Below are positions 4,725-9,634 of a DNA stretch of 39,972 nt, in pieces (position 1 is the stretch's first letter; each line of letters begins with the position of its first letter). The notes under the pieces are model-generated. The model was not told where the DNA came from, did not search any database, and saw nothing but the letters and a program-made list of their open reading frames with translations. Origin of the DNA: Candidatus Daviesbacteria bacterium GW2011_GWA2_42_7 (GTDB lineage: Bacteria > Patescibacteriota > Microgenomatia > Daviesbacterales > UBA10151); assembly GCA_000997105.1 (NCBI GenBank), contig LCEJ01000006.1:1-39972 (forward strand). The letters run 5' to 3'. The translations under genes were made by a program, and so were the position numbers.

Positions 4725-4868
4725 GAGCTCCTGACGTTATGTTACACAGACTGCCAGGATTCATCCAAGAATTTAACTCAACCCCTATTTTACCAGATTT
4801 TTTATATAACCCCTGTTAATTACGGGTTTTGTATGTATAATAAAGTATAGCAACAATTTTTAACAAGG

Positions 4869-5708
4869 ATGAATAAAGAAGTAACGCAGTCAACTAAAAT
4901 AGCTATCTTCCGAAACAGAAAAATAAGAAAAACTATTCATAAAAATGAGTGGTGGTTTGTAGTTGAGGATGTAGTTTTGGCGCTTATCGATTCAAATGAC
5001 TCAAAACAATATATCCAGCGCATGAAGCTCCGTGACCCCGAGCTTTCTAAAGGGTGGGTACAAATTGTACATACCCTTGCAATAGAAACCAGTGGCGGTA
5101 AACAGAAGATGAATTGCGCCAATACTGAAGGTATTTTTAGGATTATCCAATCAATTCCTTCAACTAAAGCAGAGCCGTTTAAAAGATGGTTAGCCAGAGT
5201 TGGATATGAAAGGGTGCAGGAGATAGAAGATCCGGAACTTGCTCAAAAACGAGCCAGAGCGCTTTACAAAGCAAAAGGATATCCGCAGGATTGGATTGAA
5301 AGACGGATGCGTTCTATTGCCATCAGGGAGGAATTAACGGATGAATGGCAAAAACACGGTGTAGAACTGGCAAAAGAGTATGAAATACTAACTGCGGAAA
5401 TATCTAAAGCCACTTTTGGCGTAACACCATCTGAATATAAGAAAATAAAAGGACTCGAACGCCAAAATTTGCGTGACCATATGAATGATTTGGAGCTTTT
5501 ATTTTCCCAGCTTGGTGAAGCTGCAACGACAGAAATTACCAAAACAGAACATCCTCAAGGGTTTGATAAAAATAAGCAAGTCTCAAGGCGTGGAGGCAAA
5601 ATTGCCGGAGATGCCAGATCTAATCTTGAAAAAGAAACAGGTAGAAAAGTAATTACTTCACAAAATTATTTACCCAAAAAACAGGCTAAAAAACTGCTAA
5701 AGAAATAA
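4869..5708 (+). CDS. BRO-N domain protein with DinD-like C-terminal region
   Basis: The N-terminus IAIFRNRKIRKTIHKNEWWFVVEDVVLAL fits the BRO-N pattern. The C-terminal half resembles remembered E. coli DinD-type proteins. Confidence 0.6.
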   Translation: MNKEVTQSTKIAIFRNRKIRKTIHKNEWWFVVEDVVLALIDSNDSKQYIQRMKLRDPELSKGWVQIVHTLAIETSGGKQKMNCANTEGIFRIIQSIPSTKAEPFKRWLARVGYERVQEIEDPELAQKRARALYKAKGYPQDWIERRMRSIAIREELTDEWQKHGVELAKEYEILTAEISKATFGVTPSEYKKIKGLERQNLRDHMNDLELLFSQLGEAATTEITKTEHPQGFDKNKQVSRRGGKIAGDARSNLEKETGRKVITSQNYLPKKQAKKLLKK

Positions 5709-5709
5709 C

Positions 5710-6411
5710 ATGCCATATAAGGTTCAATCAACTACAATATTACCTAAAGAATTTGTCCCAATTATTAAAGCTCTTAAAGACATTCATAGTTTGCATAATA
5801 AACATCAAATTTGGTATTTAGTAGGCGGATCAACTGCAATAGTAGCAGCTTCTGGCAAATATTTTAAGGTGCTAGGAGATGTGGATATAGTATGCGATAT
5901 TAAACAGCAGGAGGTTCTTCACAATGAGTTAATAAAACTTGGATACAAATTAATAAATATCCCTCCTGATTCAATTGTTAATCGAATCAAAAAACATTAT
6001 GTCAAAGATAAGCAAATAATTGATATCGCTTTTGGAAGCTTTACTAGAAAAGGTTATGAGATAAAGCTCCCAATGTTAATTCCCGGTATTTTATTAGTTT
6101 TTAGTAAGGCTATGATTCGACCTAGCATTTATGTCTTAAGTAATACTAAGTTTTTAGGGTTTTCTAAAGAAGCTCAATGGTTTGGGCTTGGAAGGTTTAT
6201 TGATACTATAGACGCCATGAATGATAAGGCTTCAAAAAGAAAGAGCAATTTGTCATTACTAGATGAAAATCTAAATAAAAAAGTAATAGAAGAAATAAAA
6301 CAAGGAGACCCTGGTATTTACATTCGAAGCATACCGATAGTAACACCTAATAATAGCACCCTCTTATTTTTGACAAACTGGTTTATTAAGTTCTGGAACA
6401 GATTTTTCTAA
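5710..6411 (+). CDS. nucleotidyltransferase-fold protein (Lnu / ANT(2'')-like motif layout)
   Basis: WYLVGGSTAIVAASGKYFKVLGDVDIVCD fits the G-G-x(n)-D-x-D Pol-beta-type NTase signature. It parallels W.(D/G)GGW..D...G...R...DIDI of lincosamide/aminoglycoside nucleotidyltransferases, and a later ..SKEAQ.. also parallels Lnu(A). The region is AT-rich, and the ATG lies 1 nt after the upstream stop. Confidence 0.5.
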   Translation: MPYKVQSTTILPKEFVPIIKALKDIHSLHNKHQIWYLVGGSTAIVAASGKYFKVLGDVDIVCDIKQQEVLHNELIKLGYKLINIPPDSIVNRIKKHYVKDKQIIDIAFGSFTRKGYEIKLPMLIPGILLVFSKAMIRPSIYVLSNTKFLGFSKEAQWFGLGRFIDTIDAMNDKASKRKSNLSLLDENLNKKVIEEIKQGDPGIYIRSIPIVTPNNSTLLFLTNWFIKFWNRFF

Positions 6412-6548
6412 AGATAAATTTAATAAGGTTGCAGGAATGATCCAAATTTCAGTTCGATTCCCGTTAGGGTATTATGTTATGGGATTAAATTTTAGCAAAA
6501 TTTAACAACCTTCCGAAGCTAAAATGCACGAATTCGATAAAAATCGTC

Positions 6549-6623
<75 letters not shown>

Positions 6624-6662
6624 ACTTCGTCACTTCGTTCCTCAGTGTAAACTACTCAGGAC

Positions 6663-6908
6663 TCAGTGTAAACTTTCTATAAGAACCAACTTCTTTTCCC
6701 TTCTCCAACCTTTAATTTCTTTTTCCCTTTTGGCAGCTTTATATTTATTCACGAGCTGCTCCAATACACTAGCCTAACAGGCAACCTTGCTTTTGTAGAA
6801 AGCACTTGACCGCTATTATGCTCCACCAGCCTCTTCTTAAGACTCCAAGTTATCCCTGTATAAAAGCTACTATCATTACACCCCAAGTATATAGACAAAG
6901 TAGGGCAT
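6663..6908 (-). pseudogene. GIY-YIG nuclease pseudogene (two frameshifts)
   Basis: Three successive frames read MPYFVYIL / LGCNDSSFYTGITWSLKKRLVEHNSGQVLSTKARLPVRLVYWSS* / EQLVNKYKAAKREKEIKGWRREKKLVLI... Together these form a full small GIY-YIG protein. Confidence 0.7.
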
Positions 6909-6949
6909 AATATGGGCTTGCCCTGAGGCCGCCATAGGCGGCCGAATGG

Positions 6950-6966
6950 GTGCCACAGCCAGGAAT
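6950..6966 (-). repeat. 17-nt duplicate of the 3' end of tRNA-Phe (att-like direct repeat)
   Basis: GTGCCACAGCCAGGAAT is identical to 7096..7112, which covers the 3' acceptor/T-arm of tRNA-Phe. Confidence 0.7.
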
Positions 6967-7057
6967 GAGTCTCGCTTCGCTCGTCTCCCCCGACATACGT
7001 CGGGGTCGAACCGCTCCGATTTTATCGGAGCTGGAATTAGATTCCTTCGACTGTAAA

Positions 7058-7094
7058 AATTTAACAAGCTAGTGAAAAACTAGCTTGTTAAATT
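7058..7094 (-). terminator. rho-independent terminator of the tRNA operon
   Basis: Perfect 15-bp stem AATTTAACAAGCTAG / CTAGCTTGTTAAATT, followed by TTTT on the minus strand, directly after the tRNA-Phe 3' end. Confidence 0.65.
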
Positions 7095-7096
7095 TG

Positions 7097-7169
7097 TGCC
7101 ACAGCCAGGAATCGAACCCGGATAAGACGCTCTTCAGGCGCCCGCCTTGACCAACTTGGCAACTGTGGC
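7097..7169 (-). tRNA. trnF: tRNA-Phe (GAA)
   Basis: Hand-folded 73 nt: GCCACAG..GGCGC-CTGAAGA-GCGTC..CCGGG-TTCGATT-CCTGG-CTGTGGC-A. Confidence 0.85.
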
Positions 7170-7203
7170 TCTTCGCTTCGCTCGACGTTCGTCGGGAGAA
7201 GGG

Positions 7204-7277
7204 TGGACCCGAGAGGACTTGAACCTCTGACCTCCTCAGTGTAAATGAGGCGCTCTGACCAACTGAGCTACGAGTCC
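7204..7277 (-). tRNA. trnV: tRNA-Val (TAC)
   Basis: Hand-folded 74 nt: GGACTCG-TA-GCTC..GAGC-G-CCTCA-TTTACAC-TGAGG..AGAGG-TTCAAGT-CCTCT-CGGGTCC-A. Confidence 0.9.
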
Positions 7278-7293
7278 AATTTTACCATACCTG

Positions 7294-7376
7294 TGCCGAA
7301 GAGAGGAGTCGAACCTCCACGAGCTTGCGCCCACAACGTTCTGAACGTTGCATGTCTACCATTCCATCACTTCGGC
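7294..7376 (-). tRNA. trnL: tRNA-Leu (CAG)
   Basis: Hand-folded 83 nt with a long variable arm. Anticodon stem-loop is CAACG-TTCAGAA-CGTTG. Confidence 0.9.
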
Positions 7377-7395
7377 ATGTTTGCCCTTAGTCAAG

Positions 7396-7478
7396 TGCCG
7401 GGAAGAGGACTCGAACCTCCACGCCATTGCTGGCACATACACCTCAAGCATGCCTGTCTACCATTTCAGCATCCCGGC
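7396..7478 (-). tRNA. trnL: tRNA-Leu (GAG)
   Basis: Hand-folded 83 nt with a long variable arm. Anticodon stem-loop is CATGC-TTGAGGT-GTATG. Confidence 0.9.
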
Positions 7479-8099
7479 TTTTTGCCTAGATATTATACCT
7501 AATGCATTCATAATTTTCGAGTGTTTTCTTCCTAAACACAAAATATCTGCATTATAATAAAGCTTATTTAAGAGTAGGACAGAGCTTTTTTTAGCATATT
7601 CCAGAGTAAAAACATTAGCTCGAAAACGTATTTTACCTTTAATTCTATAAAGTTGCTCTACCTGATCACTTAGCCACTCTAGATGTTTCTTGCTAGCTGA
7701 AGTAAAGCTGGTATATAACTGAAAACTGCTTTTCCAGCGCGGGTCAAAATAAGAATATGTATAACCATCACCATCTAAACAACCCCTTAAAAAATCAGCA
7801 AAAAATCTACTTGGTATTTTAAGCTCCCCAATAGTTTTAGATTTAGCAGACGTCAGACCAATACTGAGCAAGAATCTGTAGAGTTTTACGTTACTAAACT
7901 GCACAAAGTAATAGCGTTTCTGCGAGTAGCCTGAAGATTTTGATCCTATTTTACTTGTAATCCCAACTGCATGTAAGAAATTTTTGACTTGATCTAGATC
8001 CTTAGAGGTAAAATCTAAATGTCTTCCATCTTTCGACAGACATCCATCGGTAGCAATTAACCCCACAGCATAAGCGAATTCAGCGGTCCACACCACCAC
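7458..8099 (-). CDS. LAGLIDADG family homing endonuclease (double-motif)
   Basis: Two LAGLIDADG-type motifs are present (AYAVGLIATDGCL and FLRGCLDGDGY). The start is GTG. The last 7 codons (AGMLKW*) are the first 21 nt of tRNA-Leu(GAG). Confidence 0.85.
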   Translation of the reverse strand: MVVWTAEFAYAVGLIATDGCLSKDGRHLDFTSKDLDQVKNFLHAVGITSKIGSKSSGYSQKRYYFVQFSNVKLYRFLLSIGLTSAKSKTIGELKIPSRFFADFLRGCLDGDGYTYSYFDPRWKSSFQLYTSFTSASKKHLEWLSDQVEQLYRIKGKIRFRANVFTLEYAKKSSVLLLNKLYYNADILCLGRKHSKIMNALGIISRQKAGMLKW

Positions 8100-8112
8100 C
8101 TCATTATATCAT

Positions 8113-8150
8113 CCCTCAAGTTAATAGCGTCTACCATTAAATTTTCCGGC
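8113..8150 (-). pseudogene. degenerate 5' half of a tRNA-Leu(GAG)-like gene
   Basis: Compare GCCGGAAAATTTAATGGTAGACGCTATTAACTTGAGGG with the intact GCCGGGATGCTGAAATGGTAGACAGGCATGCTTGAGGT. Acceptor strand matches 6/7, AATGGTAGAC 10/10 and CTTGAGG 7/7. Similarity ends after the anticodon loop. Confidence 0.5.
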
Positions 8151-8189
8151 ATGATCTTAACCTACCTATTTTACCAGTATTTGATCCAG

Positions 8190-8218
8190 TTGACAAAAGA
8201 TAAAAATAACCCTAATAT
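8190..8218 (+). promoter_or_regulatory. sigma70-like promoter TTGACA-17 nt-TAATAT
   Basis: Read directly: TTGACAaaagataaaaataacccTAATAT. Confidence 0.5.
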
Positions 8219-8248
8219 TTTTGGCACTACTCTTTGGAAGACGGACCA

Positions 8249-8833
8249 ATGAGAAATATAAATTTTGCCCTAACCTGGTACACCACAACTATTTGCACGC
8301 TTGTATTTTCAATCCTTCTTTTAACTCATCTATCCTTTACCCGTCCGACAATTACACCTATAGGACAAAGCTACCAAAGCTACCGCGCACTGCCTACAAA
8401 CCTCACAACATTAACTACCCAAGAAGTAACTATCGGCAAAACCGATGCCCGTACATTGGTTATCTACCACTTCTTCAAACAAAACAATGCCCCCTTATCC
8501 CAAGCAGCCGAGAAATTTATAGAAGTGGCTGACAAATACAACCTGGATTTTAGGCTTTTACCTGCTATTGCCATGCAGGAGTCAAACGGGGGAAAGATTA
8601 TGCCCAACAACTCCTTTAACCCCTTCGGTTACGGAATCTATGGGGGTAAGGTTTTAAGGTTTACCTCTTTTGAAGAGGCAATCGAACGGGTGGGGCAGGG
8701 GCTTAAAGAAGATTATATAGATAAAGGCTTAAAAACACCTGACCAAATTATGGCAAAATATACCCCTCCTTCAATTGAAAAAGGAGGCCCCTGGGCAATC
8801 GGTGTTTCCTCTTTTATGGAAGAGCTCCACTAG
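8249..8833 (+). CDS. secreted/membrane-anchored protein with SLT-like (lysozyme-fold) E-S motif; paralog of 9047..9634
   Basis: The ATG at 8249 gives MRNINFALTWYTTTICTLVFSILL, an N-terminal TM or signal segment. DFRLLPAIAMQESNGG resembles the catalytic region of soluble lytic transglycosylases. The functional call is tentative. Confidence 0.55.
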   Translation: MRNINFALTWYTTTICTLVFSILLLTHLSFTRPTITPIGQSYQSYRALPTNLTTLTTQEVTIGKTDARTLVIYHFFKQNNAPLSQAAEKFIEVADKYNLDFRLLPAIAMQESNGGKIMPNNSFNPFGYGIYGGKVLRFTSFEEAIERVGQGLKEDYIDKGLKTPDQIMAKYTPPSIEKGGPWAIGVSSFMEELH

Positions 8834-8922: not shown

Positions 8923-9023
8923 GAGCAAGGTCGAAGTATTAATACTGAGCAAGGTCGAAGTATTAATACTGAGCAAGGTCGAAGTATTAATACTGAGCAA
9001 GGTCGAAGTATTAATACTGAGCC
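8923..9023. repeat. perfect 24-bp tandem repeat, 4.2 copies (GAGCAAGGTCGAAGTATTAATACT)
   Basis: Units at 8923, 8947, 8971 and 8995, plus a partial fifth (GAGCC). There are no spacers, so this is not a CRISPR array. Confidence 0.95.
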
Positions 9024-9046
9024 AGGATTTTTTTGTGGTGAAAAAT

Positions 9047-9634
9047 ATGTTAACCAAAAAGCTTATTGCTTTACTTCTAACACCTATTCTCCTAATTAAT
9101 ATGCCTGCCCTGGCAGTAGAAAACGTGGAGCGAGACACTCCTAAAATTGAAAGCCGTCAGATGGATAAAAGGGCCGAAGTTTTACAAGGCTACCTTGCCA
9201 AATACAACTCACCAATGCAATACCAAGCACAGGACTTTATTGATGCTGCCGATGCAAGCGGTATGGACTGGAAACTGCTTCCGGCCATTGCCGGGGTTGA
9301 GTCAACCTTTGGTAAATTTATCCCTGGTGGATACAACGCCTGGGGATGGGGAGTTTATGGAAACCAGGCTATCTACTTTAAATCCTGGAGGGAAGGTATG
9401 TTTACCGTCTCAGCCGGACTCCGTAAAAACTATATCAATCGTGGTTTAACCGACCCTGCTTCTATTAACAGGATGTACTCCACATCTTCAAAATGGAGCA
9501 CTAATGTAACTTTCTTCCTTAATGATATGGAGAAATTCGAGGCCCAATATGAAAGAAAAAGGGGCCAGGCTGCCTCTATGCACTTAATTGCCCAAGCAGC
9601 CGGACAATCCGCCCAGCTTGCCATGAGCCGATAG
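9047..9634 (+). CDS. secreted protein with SLT-like E-S motif; paralog of 8249..8833
   Basis: MLTKKLIALLLTPILLINMPALA looks like a signal peptide. DWKLLPAIAGVESTFGK aligns with the paralog. I prefer the ATG at 9047 over the GTG at 9035. Confidence 0.55.
   Translation: MLTKKLIALLLTPILLINMPALAVENVERDTPKIESRQMDKRAEVLQGYLAKYNSPMQYQAQDFIDAADASGMDWKLLPAIAGVESTFGKFIPGGYNAWGWGVYGNQAIYFKSWREGMFTVSAGLRKNYINRGLTDPASINRMYSTSSKWSTNVTFFLNDMEKFEAQYERKRGQAASMHLIAQAAGQSAQLAMSR

What the first reader, a model, noticed from the sequence alone, without database searches (positions are those of the whole stretch)
7396..8150. LAGLIDADG homing-endonuclease ORF bracketed by a tRNA-Leu 5'-half duplication and terminating inside the intact tRNA
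The minus-strand order begins with a degenerate tRNA-Leu(GAG)-like 5' half (8150->8113). Compared with the intact gene, its acceptor strand matches 6/7, AATGGTAGAC 10/10 and the anticodon loop CTTGAGG 7/7. Similarity stops right after the anticodon loop, which is the canonical tRNA intron position 37/38. About 13 nt later the 213-codon LAGLIDADG ORF starts. Its last seven codons (AGMLKW, then TAG) are the first 21 nt of the intact tRNA-Leu(GAG). That tRNA heads a Leu-Leu-Val-Phe operon ending at the terminator 7058..7094. The endonuclease gene is therefore flanked by a direct repeat of the tRNA 5' half. This is consistent with a former insertion in the anticodon loop healed by duplication. One consequence follows: RNase P cleavage at the tRNA 5' end (7478) would remove the ORF stop codon from the mRNA, which would couple endonuclease expression inversely to tRNA maturation.
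Basis: partly seen in the sequence, partly recalled or inferred. Interest (0 to 1): 0.62.

Follow-up and report, generated by a model that had tools for sequence, protein, structure and literature searches.

The report
Endonuclease gene welded to tRNA-Leu
A LAGLIDADG endonuclease gene sits directly in front of tRNA-Leu(GAG), ends inside that tRNA, and is preceded by a relic of the tRNA's front half; the same unit recurs in hundreds of candidate-phyla-radiation bacteria and was not described in the papers I could search.

Summary
ORF 7458-8099(-) is a two-motif LAGLIDADG endonuclease. Its last seven codons and its stop codon are the first 21 nt of tRNA-Leu(GAG) (7395-7478). A tRNA-Leu(GAG)-like 5' fragment lies at 8113-8150.

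The arrangement is not a local accident. In all 75 loci with enough downstream sequence (74 relatives plus the window), the ORF ends from 16 nt before to about 114 nt after the first base of a tRNA-Leu (71 GAG, 2 AAG, 2 CAG). About 50 of 84 related loci carry the same conserved 'Leu box' (GGTAKACGCTATnnnCTTGAGG) just upstream of the ORF's -10 element. A profile built from 42 foreign boxes hits the window only at 8105-8138 (E=2e-9).

The ORF's last ~13 codons also encode the tRNA's own promoter. Three related loci lack both the ORF and the box.

Best reading: a free-standing homing-endonuclease cassette specialised on the tRNA-Leu(GAG) locus. It keeps the tRNA expressed and retains a target-derived box as promoter/operator.

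The 'intron position 37/38' and 'recent healing duplication' parts are not supported: there is no ribozyme, and the boxes do not track the resident tRNA. The RNase P/stop-codon idea is sequence-consistent and was proposed before for T4 segB, but it holds for only about half the family. No biochemistry or transcript data exist.

The parts
8168..8196 (-). Sigma-70-like promoter TTGTCA-17-TAAAAT (TG-extended). This is the ancestral tRNA-operon promoter, now upstream of the relic and the endonuclease gene.
   Evidence: Promoter scan scores 10/12. TTGTCAA-N17-TARAAT aligns with the promoter that precedes tRNA-Leu(CAG) in the endonuclease-less loci L085 and L086. The region 8151-8233 is 97.6% identical to L081.
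8144..8150 (-). Acceptor-stem-like heptamer GCCGGAA (6/7 to GCCGGGA of the intact tRNA).
   Evidence: Direct reading. The relative L081 reads GTTGGAA at this place, a sign that it is decaying. Fuller acceptor-bearing relics occur in L082, L001 and L042.
8105..8138 (-). 'Leu box': a conserved relic of the tRNA-Leu(GAG) D-loop to anticodon loop (AATGGTAGACGCTATTAACTTGAGG...).
   Evidence: A profile of 42 boxes from other loci hits here at 32.7 bits, E=2e-9, and this is the only strong hit in the window. The box is significant in about 50 of 84 related loci, always on the ORF strand and just upstream of the ORF. It is absent from the 3 empty loci.
8103..8111 (-). Extended -10 element TGATATAAT of the endonuclease gene, 3 nt before the first GTG.
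   Evidence: Direct reading. TGnTAnAAT follows the box in most loci. Positions 8100-8112 are 13/13 identical to L081.
7458..8099 (-). Single-chain LAGLIDADG endonuclease ORF, 213 aa from GTG 8099 (211 aa from GTG 8093). The stop is TAG 7458-7460.
   Evidence: Pfam LAGLIDADG_3, E=1.3e-8. AlphaFold2 model with pLDDT 92 and pTM 0.89. Best structural match is I-Tsp061I (2DCH), TM 0.67-0.70. D18, G19, D111 and G112 are invariant in 74/74 sequences. dN/dS is 0.20 against L081.
7492..7520 (-). Promoter of tRNA-Leu(GAG), embedded in the ORF's last codons: TCGAAA-17-TATAAT. The TATAAT lies within the codons for L-G-I-I and ends 13 nt before tRNA +1.
   Evidence: Promoter scan scores 10/12. A -10-like hexamer ends 5-16 nt before tRNA +1 in 30 of 75 loci, with a peak at -10, against 45 of 600 ORF-internal control windows. 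The motif TTTAAA-17-TATAAT corresponds to the peptide F-K-I...L-G-I-I.
7395..7478 (-). Intact tRNA-Leu(GAG). Its first 21 nt (7458-7478) are read as AGMLKW plus the stop codon of the ORF.
   Evidence: ARAGORN. Rfam tRNA, 46.9 bits. The C-termini of homologues (AGVLKLV..., AGMLEW) are translations of tRNA 5' ends.
7096..7376 (-). Downstream tRNAs of the operon: Leu(CAG) 7293-7376, Val(TAC) 7201-7278, Phe(GAA) 7096-7169.
   Evidence: ARAGORN and Rfam.
7058..7094 (-). Intrinsic-terminator hairpin (17-bp stem plus U-run) directly after tRNA-Phe.
   Evidence: RNA fold gives dG -19.8 kcal/mol, z=-7.1. It lies inside the 470-nt segment that related contigs lack.

Best explanation
The region is one copy of a three-part unit found across the candidate phyla radiation (CPR, Patescibacteria).

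The three parts are:
1. A 22-34-nt 'Leu box' descended from the D-loop-to-anticodon-loop part of a tRNA-Leu(GAG) gene.
2. A roughly 212-codon single-chain LAGLIDADG endonuclease gene. Its extended -10 promoter is wedged between the box and the start codon.
3. The functional tRNA-Leu(GAG). The tRNA's promoter and first bases are read as the ORF's C-terminal codons and stop codon.

I read this as a free-standing homing-endonuclease cassette specialised on the tRNA-Leu(GAG) locus.

Shown:
- The anatomy of the unit and its recurrence across loci.
- An intact catalytic signature and purifying selection on the ORF.
- Related loci that lack the ORF.
- Rare copies at other Leu tRNAs.

Inferred:
- The enzyme cuts unoccupied tRNA-Leu(GAG) loci, and repair copies the cassette in.
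- The cassette avoids harming its host because it carries an outward promoter in its last codons that restarts tRNA transcription a few bases before tRNA +1. Ancestrally it probably also carried a replacement 5' part of the tRNA.
- The displaced 5'-half relic has been kept because it spans the -35 to -10 region of the endonuclease promoter. It probably serves as an operator that the enzyme binds without cutting, as I-TevI does at its own promoter.
- tRNA 5' processing by RNase P cuts the endonuclease message at or beside its stop codon and so limits expression. In this window the cut removes the stop codon.
For: Protein:
- Pfam LAGLIDADG_3 match.
- Confident two-domain AlphaFold2 model. Its nearest structures are I-Tsp061I, I-DmoI, I-AniI and I-SceI.
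- Both catalytic Asp-Gly pairs are invariant in 74/74 sequences.
- dN/dS is 0.20.

Linkage to the tRNA:
- 586 GTDB species genomes encode a relative.
- In all 75 loci with enough downstream sequence (74 relatives plus the window), a tRNA-Leu follows directly: 71 GAG, 2 AAG, 2 CAG.
- In the 72 loci with intact ORFs, the ORF ends from -16 to +114 nt relative to tRNA +1.

Leu box:
- 44 of 81 loci match the 22-mer with at most 3 substitutions, against 5 matches elsewhere in 756 kb.
- The box profile gives E=2e-9 in the window.
- It gives about 50 upstream hits in the same orientation across 87 loci, and none in the empty loci.
- The relic keeps the acceptor stem and promoter in L082, where the repeat spans 115 nt (z=16.6).

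Promoter inside the ORF's 3' end.

Presence/absence and mobility:
- L086 and L087 have Leu(CAG) directly followed by Leu(GAG), with no ORF and no box.
- L085 holds a different insert in the same slot.
- L040 has one copy at Leu(CAG) and a second box-plus-ORF copy truncated by an IS.

Precedent: T4 SegB is a free-standing homing endonuclease in a tRNA cluster. It recognises a tRNA motif, and its stop codon is separated from the ORF by tRNA-Arg processing (PMC2330249).
Against: - No enzyme assay and no transcript data exist. The RNA runs listed do not hold the locus.
- No empty allele was found in the window organism's own population.
- tRNA-Leu(GAG) positions 8-45 are identical in occupied loci (L006, L026, L059) and unoccupied loci (L085-L087). 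A target inside the tRNA would therefore also exist in the host copy. Immunity would then have to rest on low expression, as proposed for SegB, or the target must include the upstream leader.
- The endonuclease tree separates Microgenomates-labelled from Parcubacteria-labelled loci. Long vertical residence with occasional loss could therefore explain much of the linkage without ongoing homing.
- About 34 of 84 loci lack a recognisable box.
- Between the window and L081 the relic is only 79% identical. This is close to the roughly 75% expected at neutral sites from dS 0.32, so the box is not constrained everywhere.
- The operator role of the box is pure inference.
Confidence: 0.55

Rival explanations
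1. The endonuclease element inserted into the anticodon loop of this genome's tRNA-Leu(GAG) at the intron position 37/38. The gene was then healed by duplicating its own 5' half. The fragment at 8113-8150 is the displaced resident half.
For: - Similarity between the relic and the tRNA ends at G37/T38.
- Some relics keep an acceptor stem close to their own tRNA: L042 matches 10/10 first bases, and L082 has a 115-nt repeat.
- The window's relic sits directly behind the ancestral operon promoter, where a tRNA would start.
- As the ancient founding event of the whole family, this remains plausible.
Against: - The boxes from 44 loci share derived features absent from real tRNAs: the ACGCTAT motif and a D-loop-to-anticodon spacing of 17 rather than 16.
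- The boxes do not match their own tRNA better than other genomes' tRNAs (p=0.69). The relic was therefore inherited with the ORF and not made locally.
- No intron ribozyme is present.
- The repeat also covers the tRNA promoter and the ORF's 3' end.
- Occupied loci of the L006 type have no relic at all.
- A perfectly healed tRNA would still contain the cleavage site.
Confidence: 0.2
2. The protein is a domesticated LAGLIDADG DNA-binding protein (as WhiA is), inherited vertically since early in the CPR. It regulates the tRNA-Leu operon by binding the Leu box and is no longer mobile.
For: - The deep split of the protein tree follows the host superphyla.
- Purifying selection is strong and very few ORFs are broken, 3 of 80.
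- The box lies in promoter position.
- WhiA is the second-best structural match.
- The window and L081 show flank divergence consistent with vertical descent.
Against: - Both catalytic aspartates are invariant in 74/74 sequences. Loss of these residues in WhiA is stated from my own knowledge.
- The protein has no extra helix-turn-helix domain.
- Related lineages with the same tRNA lack the gene.
- Ectopic and duplicated copies occur at Leu(CAG), and one copy is broken by an IS.
- Daviesbacteria-labelled and Liptonbacteria-labelled copies are scattered in the tree.
- One third of loci have no box.
Confidence: 0.2
3. The upstream similarity is chance, and the ORF/tRNA overlap is an incidental result of tight gene packing.
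For: - Within the window alone the similarity is modest (z=3.0, p about 0.015).
- Rfam's tRNA model does not report the fragment.
Against: - The box profile hits the window at E=2e-9.
- Boxes recur in about 50 loci in the same place and orientation.
- All 75 loci with enough downstream sequence have a tRNA-Leu directly downstream.
Confidence: 0.02

Closest known systems
Phage T4 SegB, a free-standing GIY-YIG homing endonuclease in the T4 tRNA gene cluster (PMC2330249)
   Same: - It is a free-standing nuclease gene, not inside an intron, embedded in a tRNA operon in the same orientation.
- Its recognition site is built on a conserved tRNA motif.
- The host's own tRNA genes remain cleavable, and protection is ascribed to low expression.
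- The ORF's stop codon is separated from the ORF by 5' processing of the next tRNA.
- The nuclease gene and its neighbouring tRNA genes are inherited together.
   Different: - It uses an unrelated fold (GIY-YIG rather than LAGLIDADG).
- It is a phage gene rather than a bacterial chromosomal gene.
- SegB targets the T-psi-C arm of many tRNAs, whereas this family is tied to one isoacceptor.
- SegB has no conserved tRNA-derived box upstream.
- SegB has no tRNA promoter encoded inside its ORF.
Archaeal rRNA-intron LAGLIDADG enzymes I-Tsp061I (2DCH) and I-DmoI
   Same: They are the closest solved sequence and fold. They are single-chain enzymes of about 200 aa with two motifs, each ending in an acidic residue followed by Gly.
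   Different: They are encoded inside rRNA introns and target rRNA genes. Sequence identity is only 17%. They have no link to tRNA.
CPR rRNA-intron LAGLIDADG homing endonucleases such as I-ShaI (PMC11270868)
   Same: They occur in the same host group, belong to the same enzyme superfamily, and target a conserved structural-RNA gene.
   Different: They sit in self-splicing introns of 16S/23S rRNA. That paper does not mention tRNA at all. The present family is intron-less and sits 5' of a tRNA.
I-Ssp6803I, the endonuclease of the group I intron in cyanobacterial tRNA-fMet (from my own knowledge, not checked here)
   Same: It is a bacterial homing endonuclease whose target is the anticodon region of a tRNA gene.
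   Different: It is a PD-(D/E)XK enzyme inside a self-splicing intron that interrupts the tRNA. Here there is no ribozyme, and the tRNA is uninterrupted.
I-TevI autorepression at an operator resembling its homing site (from my own knowledge, not checked here)
   Same: A target-like sequence overlaps the endonuclease's own promoter. This is the model I propose for the Leu box.
   Different: It is a GIY-YIG enzyme in a phage intron. Binding of the CPR protein to the box is untested.
Integrase-driven genomic islands that duplicate part of a tRNA gene at their ends (from my own knowledge)
   Same: The insert is flanked by an intact tRNA on one side and a partial tRNA copy on the other, so the tRNA stays functional.
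   Different: Those elements use a tyrosine integrase and duplicate the 3' part of the tRNA. Here the whole insert is a single 640-bp LAGLIDADG ORF, and the 5' part is duplicated.

Membership tests
LAGLIDADG homing endonuclease, single-chain (Pfam LAGLIDADG_3) | Significant match to the family profile | tested here: met
   PF14528 scores 35.4 bits against a cutoff of 22.5, E=1.3e-8. The family profile hits PDB 2DCH at E=1.3e-8.
LAGLIDADG homing endonuclease, single-chain (Pfam LAGLIDADG_3) | Two LAGLIDADG helices, each ending in a catalytic acidic residue followed by Gly | tested here: met
   GLIATD18-G19 and GCLDGD111-G112. D18, G19, D111 and G112 are invariant in 74/74 family members.
LAGLIDADG homing endonuclease, single-chain (Pfam LAGLIDADG_3) | Pseudo-dimeric alpha-beta-beta-alpha-beta-beta-alpha fold | tested here: met
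   AlphaFold2 model with pLDDT 92 and pTM 0.89, showing two repeats of helix plus four strands. All 50 Foldseek matches listed are LAGLIDADG-fold proteins: enzymes, inteins, a maturase and WhiA.
LAGLIDADG homing endonuclease, single-chain (Pfam LAGLIDADG_3) | Site-specific double-strand cleavage of a 14-22-bp target | not testable with these tools
   Needs purified protein and substrate DNA.
LAGLIDADG homing endonuclease, single-chain (Pfam LAGLIDADG_3) | Presence/absence polymorphism at a fixed genomic site (mobility) | tested here: inconclusive
   Empty loci L086 and L087 have the same tRNA core as occupied L006 and L026. Extra copies occur at Leu(CAG). However, no polymorphism was seen within one population, and the deep phylogeny looks vertical.
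Intron-encoded endonuclease in a tRNA intron (group I, or archaeal bulge-helix-bulge) | Self-splicing ribozyme core or splice motif around the ORF | tested here: not met
   Rfam at E<=10 over 6400-8700 reports no intron family. Only 13 nt lie between the relic and the ORF, and 0 nt between the ORF and the tRNA. The leader has no significant fold (z -1.1 and -1.3). A bulge-helix-bulge motif was not searched for specifically.
Intron-encoded endonuclease in a tRNA intron (group I, or archaeal bulge-helix-bulge) | The insert separates a 5' exon from a matching 3' exon of one tRNA | tested here: not met
   The 3' side is a complete tRNA of 84 nt scoring 46.9 bits. The 5' relic has one extra base and no pairing partner.
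Free-standing homing endonuclease in a tRNA cluster (SegB type, 'intronless homing') | Nuclease ORF between genes of a tRNA operon, in the same orientation, with no intron or intein | tested here: met
Free-standing homing endonuclease in a tRNA cluster (SegB type, 'intronless homing') | ORF end coincides with the 5' processing site of the next tRNA | tested here: met
   In the window the stop codon is 21 nt inside the tRNA. Across the family the ORF end lies from -16 to +114 nt, and it is inside the tRNA in 38 of 72 loci. The segB description is in PMC2330249.
Free-standing homing endonuclease in a tRNA cluster (SegB type, 'intronless homing') | Homology to SegB (GIY-YIG domain) | tested here: not met
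   The protein is a LAGLIDADG enzyme. The resemblance is in the way of working, not in descent.
tRNA-targeting integrative element | Integrase gene, and duplication of the tRNA's 3' part | tested here: not met
   The only ORF between the repeats is the LAGLIDADG gene, and the duplicated part is the 5' half.
WhiA-like domesticated LAGLIDADG regulator | Loss of the catalytic acidic residues and an added C-terminal helix-turn-helix domain | tested here: not met
   The catalytic Asp residues are retained in 74/74 sequences. The protein is 213 aa and has only one C-terminal helix, residues 190-212.

The most novel reading that the evidence does not exclude
This would be a 'self-healing' homing cassette that invades an essential tRNA gene without needing an intron. 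It carries a replacement promoter and 5' half for the tRNA, so the gene is rebuilt on its right side. The displaced resident 5' half on its left side becomes the endonuclease's promoter and operator. The nuclease and a functional copy of its own essential target would then travel as one unit through the CPR, a natural analogue of a cleave-and-rescue gene drive.
Probability: 0.3. Interest if true: 0.85.

Novelty: new variant of a known kind. Interest (0 to 1): 0.68.

Why it matters
Homing endonucleases are thought to survive in essential genes only by hiding in self-splicing introns or inteins. This unit suggests a third solution.

- The nuclease gene abuts an essential tRNA.
- It overlaps the tRNA's promoter and first bases with its own coding sequence.
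- It keeps a relic of the target as a conserved control box.

If confirmed, it would add a large, compact (about 212 aa) and naturally diverse set of LAGLIDADG enzymes with a guessable target. It would explain a recurrent 'hypothetical protein' in at least 586 CPR species genomes. It would also give a concrete case of coding sequence that doubles as a promoter, and of endonuclease expression tied to tRNA processing.

Tried and rejected
- Rfam scan at E<=10 over 6400-8700 found no intron family and did not call the relic a tRNA. The intron model was dropped.
- RNA folds of the leader (8085-8165 and 8085-8150) were not better than shuffles, z -1.1 and -1.3. No case for an RNA-level role of the relic.
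- Contigs from four metagenome runs were laid on 6400-8800 to look for an allele lacking the ORF. No joint skips it. The runs are kept only as contigs, so absence is weak evidence.
- The RNA runs listed hold none of the locus, so transcription starts and processing could not be checked.
- Empty loci (L085-L087) were aligned with occupied loci (L006, L026, L059) to place the insertion junctions. The tRNAs align but the flanks are too diverged, so the junctions could not be defined.
- I tested whether the ORF upstream of the relic in L082 is a decayed older endonuclease copy. It shows no similarity.
- I tested whether boxes are copies of each genome's own tRNA. They are not (permutation p=0.69).
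- A first fuzzy motif search allowing 5 substitutions plus indels was too loose, matching 36% of background windows. It was replaced by a search allowing at most 3 substitutions and by a profile.
- The viral-contig scan found only distant LAGLIDADG relatives at 24-40% identity. No phage carrier was found.
- Four literature searches found no description of a tRNA-Leu-linked LAGLIDADG gene in the CPR. The library is incomplete, so this is not proof of novelty.
Full report
**What is in the window**

On the minus strand the order is as follows.
- A sigma-70-like promoter, TTGTCA-17-TAAAAT, at 8196-8168.
- A tRNA-like fragment at 8150-8113.
- An extended -10 element, TGATATAAT, at 8111-8103.
- A 213-codon ORF at 8099-7458.
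- tRNA-Leu(GAG) 7478-7395, tRNA-Leu(CAG) 7376-7293, tRNA-Val(TAC) 7278-7201 and tRNA-Phe(GAA) 7169-7096.
- A 17-bp hairpin with a U-run at 7094-7058 (dG -19.8, z -7.1).

The acceptor matches 6/7, AATGGTAGAC matches 10/10 and CTTGAGG matches 7/7. The gap to the ORF start is 13 nt. The ORF's last seven codons plus TAG are the first 21 nt of the tRNA.

**The protein**

- It matches Pfam LAGLIDADG_3.
- A profile of the family finds only the archaeal intron enzyme 2DCH among solved structures.
- An AlphaFold2 model (pLDDT 92, pTM 0.89) shows two helix-plus-four-strand repeats and a long C-terminal helix at residues 190-212.
- Foldseek puts I-Tsp061I first (TM 0.67-0.70). WhiA, intein endonucleases, I-AniI, I-DmoI and I-SceI follow.
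- The two Asp-Gly pairs that end the LAGLIDADG helices (D18-G19 and D111-G112) are invariant in 74 of 74 relatives.
- Against the closest relative with DNA in hand (L081, 86% protein identity), dN/dS is 0.20 with dS 0.32.

This is what an active, selected endonuclease looks like. Activity itself is untested.

**The arrangement is family-wide**

- A protein search returned more than 1,500 relatives at 55-86% identity. The few that carry names come from Daviesbacteria and Levybacteria.
- Their C-termini (AGVLKLVNRLP, AGVAKLVYA, AGMLEW) are translations of tRNA 5' ends.
Where the record titles name a group reliably, it is a Patescibacteria lineage.
- I fetched 80 of those loci. Together with the window, all 75 loci with enough downstream sequence have a tRNA-Leu directly after the ORF: 71 GAG, 2 AAG, 2 CAG.
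- Across 72 intact ORFs the stop codon lies inside the tRNA in 38 and ends 0-16 nt before it in 34. Only 3 of 80 ORFs have premature stops.
- An exhaustive profile search counts 304 clusters (at 50% identity) with E<=1e-30.
- Viral contigs hold only distant relatives.

**The upstream relic is a conserved box**

- Most loci carry AATTGGTAKACGCTATnnnCTTGAGG upstream of the ORF, followed by TGnTATAAT or TATAAT and a start codon a few bases later.
- With at most 3 substitutions the 22-mer occurs in 44 of 81 loci within 160 nt of the ORF. Elsewhere it occurs 5 times in 756 kb. Three of those are real tRNA-Leu(TAA) genes and two are further boxes.
- A profile built from 42 boxes, excluding the window, hits the window once, at 8105-8138(-), with 32.7 bits and E=2e-9. 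The real Leu tRNAs score under 5 bits.
- Across 87 loci the profile gives about 50 significant hits. All are on the ORF strand and all but one lie directly upstream of an ORF copy; the L075 hit is about 200 nt upstream. The three ORF-less loci have none.
- The box clearly resembles the tRNA's D-loop and GAG anticodon loop.
- It has its own derived features, however. It contains ACGCTAT, and its D-loop-to-anticodon spacing is 17 nt, against 16 nt in 63 of 70 real tRNAs; the other 7 reach 17 through an extra D-loop base.
- At the variable positions a box is no more like its own genome's tRNA than like another genome's (p=0.69).

The relic therefore descends from a tRNA-Leu(GAG) 5' half, but it is inherited with the ORF and is not re-made in each genome.

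Some copies are fuller.
- L082 has a 115-nt repeat (z=16.6). It runs from 69 nt upstream of tRNA +1, inside the ORF's 3' end, to about +45.
- L001 and L042 keep acceptor stems.
- In the window the repeat reaches from about -21 to +37.

**The ORF's tail is the tRNA's promoter**

- In the window, TCGAAA-17-TATAAT (7520-7492) lies in the last codons. The TATAAT is inside the codons for L-G-I-I and ends 13 nt before tRNA +1.
- Across loci a -10-like hexamer ends 5-16 nt before tRNA +1 in 30 of 75 cases, with a sharp peak at -10. Only 45 of 600 ORF-internal control windows do the same.
- In the Microgenomates-type loci the motif TTTAAA-17-TATAAT corresponds to the conserved peptide F-K-I...L-G-I-I.

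The cassette therefore carries an outward promoter that restarts tRNA transcription just before the tRNA. This explains both the tight packing and the conservation of the C-terminal peptide.

**Empty sites and mobility**

One metagenome scan with the tRNA core shared by L006, L026 and the window returned three loci.
- L087 has Leu(CAG), a 19-nt spacer, then Leu(GAG).
- L086 has Leu(CAG), a 56-nt spacer, then Leu(GAG). It lies next to the same glucosaminidase-like neighbour gene as in the window.
- L085 has a 23S-rRNA-IVS-type ORF in the same slot (Pfam 4e-29).

None of the three has the endonuclease or the box.

The operon promoter TTGTCAA-N17-TARAAT that precedes Leu(CAG) in L085 and L086 aligns with the promoter upstream of the window's relic. 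In the window and L081 the relic-plus-ORF block therefore follows the ancestral promoter directly, and Leu(CAG) lies after Leu(GAG). Other Microgenomates have the order Leu(CAG)-box-ORF-Leu(GAG).

L040 carries one full copy next to Leu(CAG). It also carries a second box-plus-ORF copy cut by an IS4/5 transposase.

A neighbour-joining tree separates Microgenomates-labelled from Parcubacteria/Berkelbacteria-labelled copies. Daviesbacteria and Liptonbacteria copies are scattered within their halves. Descent is thus mostly vertical at depth, with some signs of movement.

**How it most likely works**

Shown: the anatomy, its recurrence, the catalytic signature, purifying selection, the empty sites and the ectopic copies.

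Inferred:
- The enzyme cuts unoccupied tRNA-Leu(GAG) loci, and repair copies the cassette in.
- The internal promoter removes the polar cost of sitting in a tRNA operon.
- The box, which spans the -35 to -10 region of the endonuclease promoter, acts as a promoter and probably as an operator that the enzyme binds but cannot cut.
- RNase P cleavage at 7478 cuts the message within its last seven codons, 18 nt upstream of the stop codon.

The last point has a published precedent. For T4 segB, processing of tRNA-Arg separates the last codon from the stop codon, and this was proposed to keep the enzyme scarce. T4's own tRNA genes remain cleavable (PMC2330249).

**Unresolved weaknesses**

- Positions 8-45 of the tRNA are identical in occupied and empty loci. 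Self-immunity cannot come from sequence differences there.
- The box is missing from a third of loci.
- The box drifts at a near-neutral rate between the window and L081: 79% identity against 97.6% for the adjacent 83 nt.
- No transcript or population evidence could be obtained.

The endonuclease, the 5'-half relic, the overlap and the processing coupling hold up.

It over-reaches on three points.
- The intron position is not supported, because no ribozyme is present.
- A local healing event is not supported.
- The generality of stop-codon loss is not supported.

**Novelty**

Four searches of the paper library found CPR rRNA-intron LAGLIDADG enzymes (PMC11270868, which never mentions tRNA) and SegB. 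They found no description of this tRNA-Leu-linked family. I rate it a new variant of a known kind: a free-standing homing endonuclease in a tRNA operon.

Noticed in passing
window 6626-7095 (minus strand), between tRNA-Phe and tRNA-Gly: A second nuclease insert sits in the same operon. After tRNA-Phe come the terminator hairpin and a T-arm-like fragment (7002-7019). Next is a deleted mini-copy of tRNA-Phe: its leader (6972-6983) is identical to 7173-7184, and its 3' end (6945-6966) is 91% identical to 7091-7112. Last is a frameshifted GIY-YIG ORF (6749-7067; Pfam GIY-YIG E=1.5e-5 for the 6749-6898 part). Contigs in runs X1 and X2 join 6625 to 7096 with only 'AAA' between, and L005 has Phe-3 nt-Gly. 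The 470 nt are therefore an insertion.
   Followed up: partly
L085 1304-1690: In a relative that lacks the endonuclease, the same slot between tRNA-Leu(CAG) and tRNA-Leu(GAG) holds a 128-aa 23S-rRNA-intervening-sequence protein gene (PF05635, E=4e-29). The slot seems to be a hotspot for small inserts.
   Followed up: partly
L040 2489-3145 and 4634-4777: One Daviesbacteria contig has two copies. A full endonuclease gene abuts tRNA-Leu(CAG) and has no box. A second copy with a box encodes only the first 34 codons before an IS4/5 transposase (4838-5605, minus strand) interrupts it.
   Followed up: partly
window 7904-7917 (minus strand, inside the ORF): ACGCTATTACTTTG, in the codons for K-R-Y-Y-F-V, resembles the core of the Leu box (86% to 8117-8130; profile E=0.64). 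It is probably chance, but it falls in a conserved KKYY peptide.
   Followed up: no
window 8923-9026: A 24-nt tandem repeat (4.3 copies, 98% matches) lies between two paralogous glucosaminidase-like genes (8234-8833 and 9035-9634, both on the plus strand).
   Followed up: no
Parcubacteria-type loci, e.g. L033, L034, L068 (about 36 nt upstream of the aligned ORF start): Parcubacteria-type copies start with an extra basic N-terminal peptide (MGKRGPKPKGKV...) that the window and other Microgenomates-type copies lack. Their ATG lies only 6-10 nt after the -10 box, which looks like a leaderless message.
   Followed up: no
window 6497-6511 and 7056-7070: AAAATTTAACAA(C/G)CT occurs both in the hairpin after tRNA-Phe and just after tRNA-Gly (93% identity). 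The terminator may have been duplicated along with the GIY-YIG insert.
   Followed up: no
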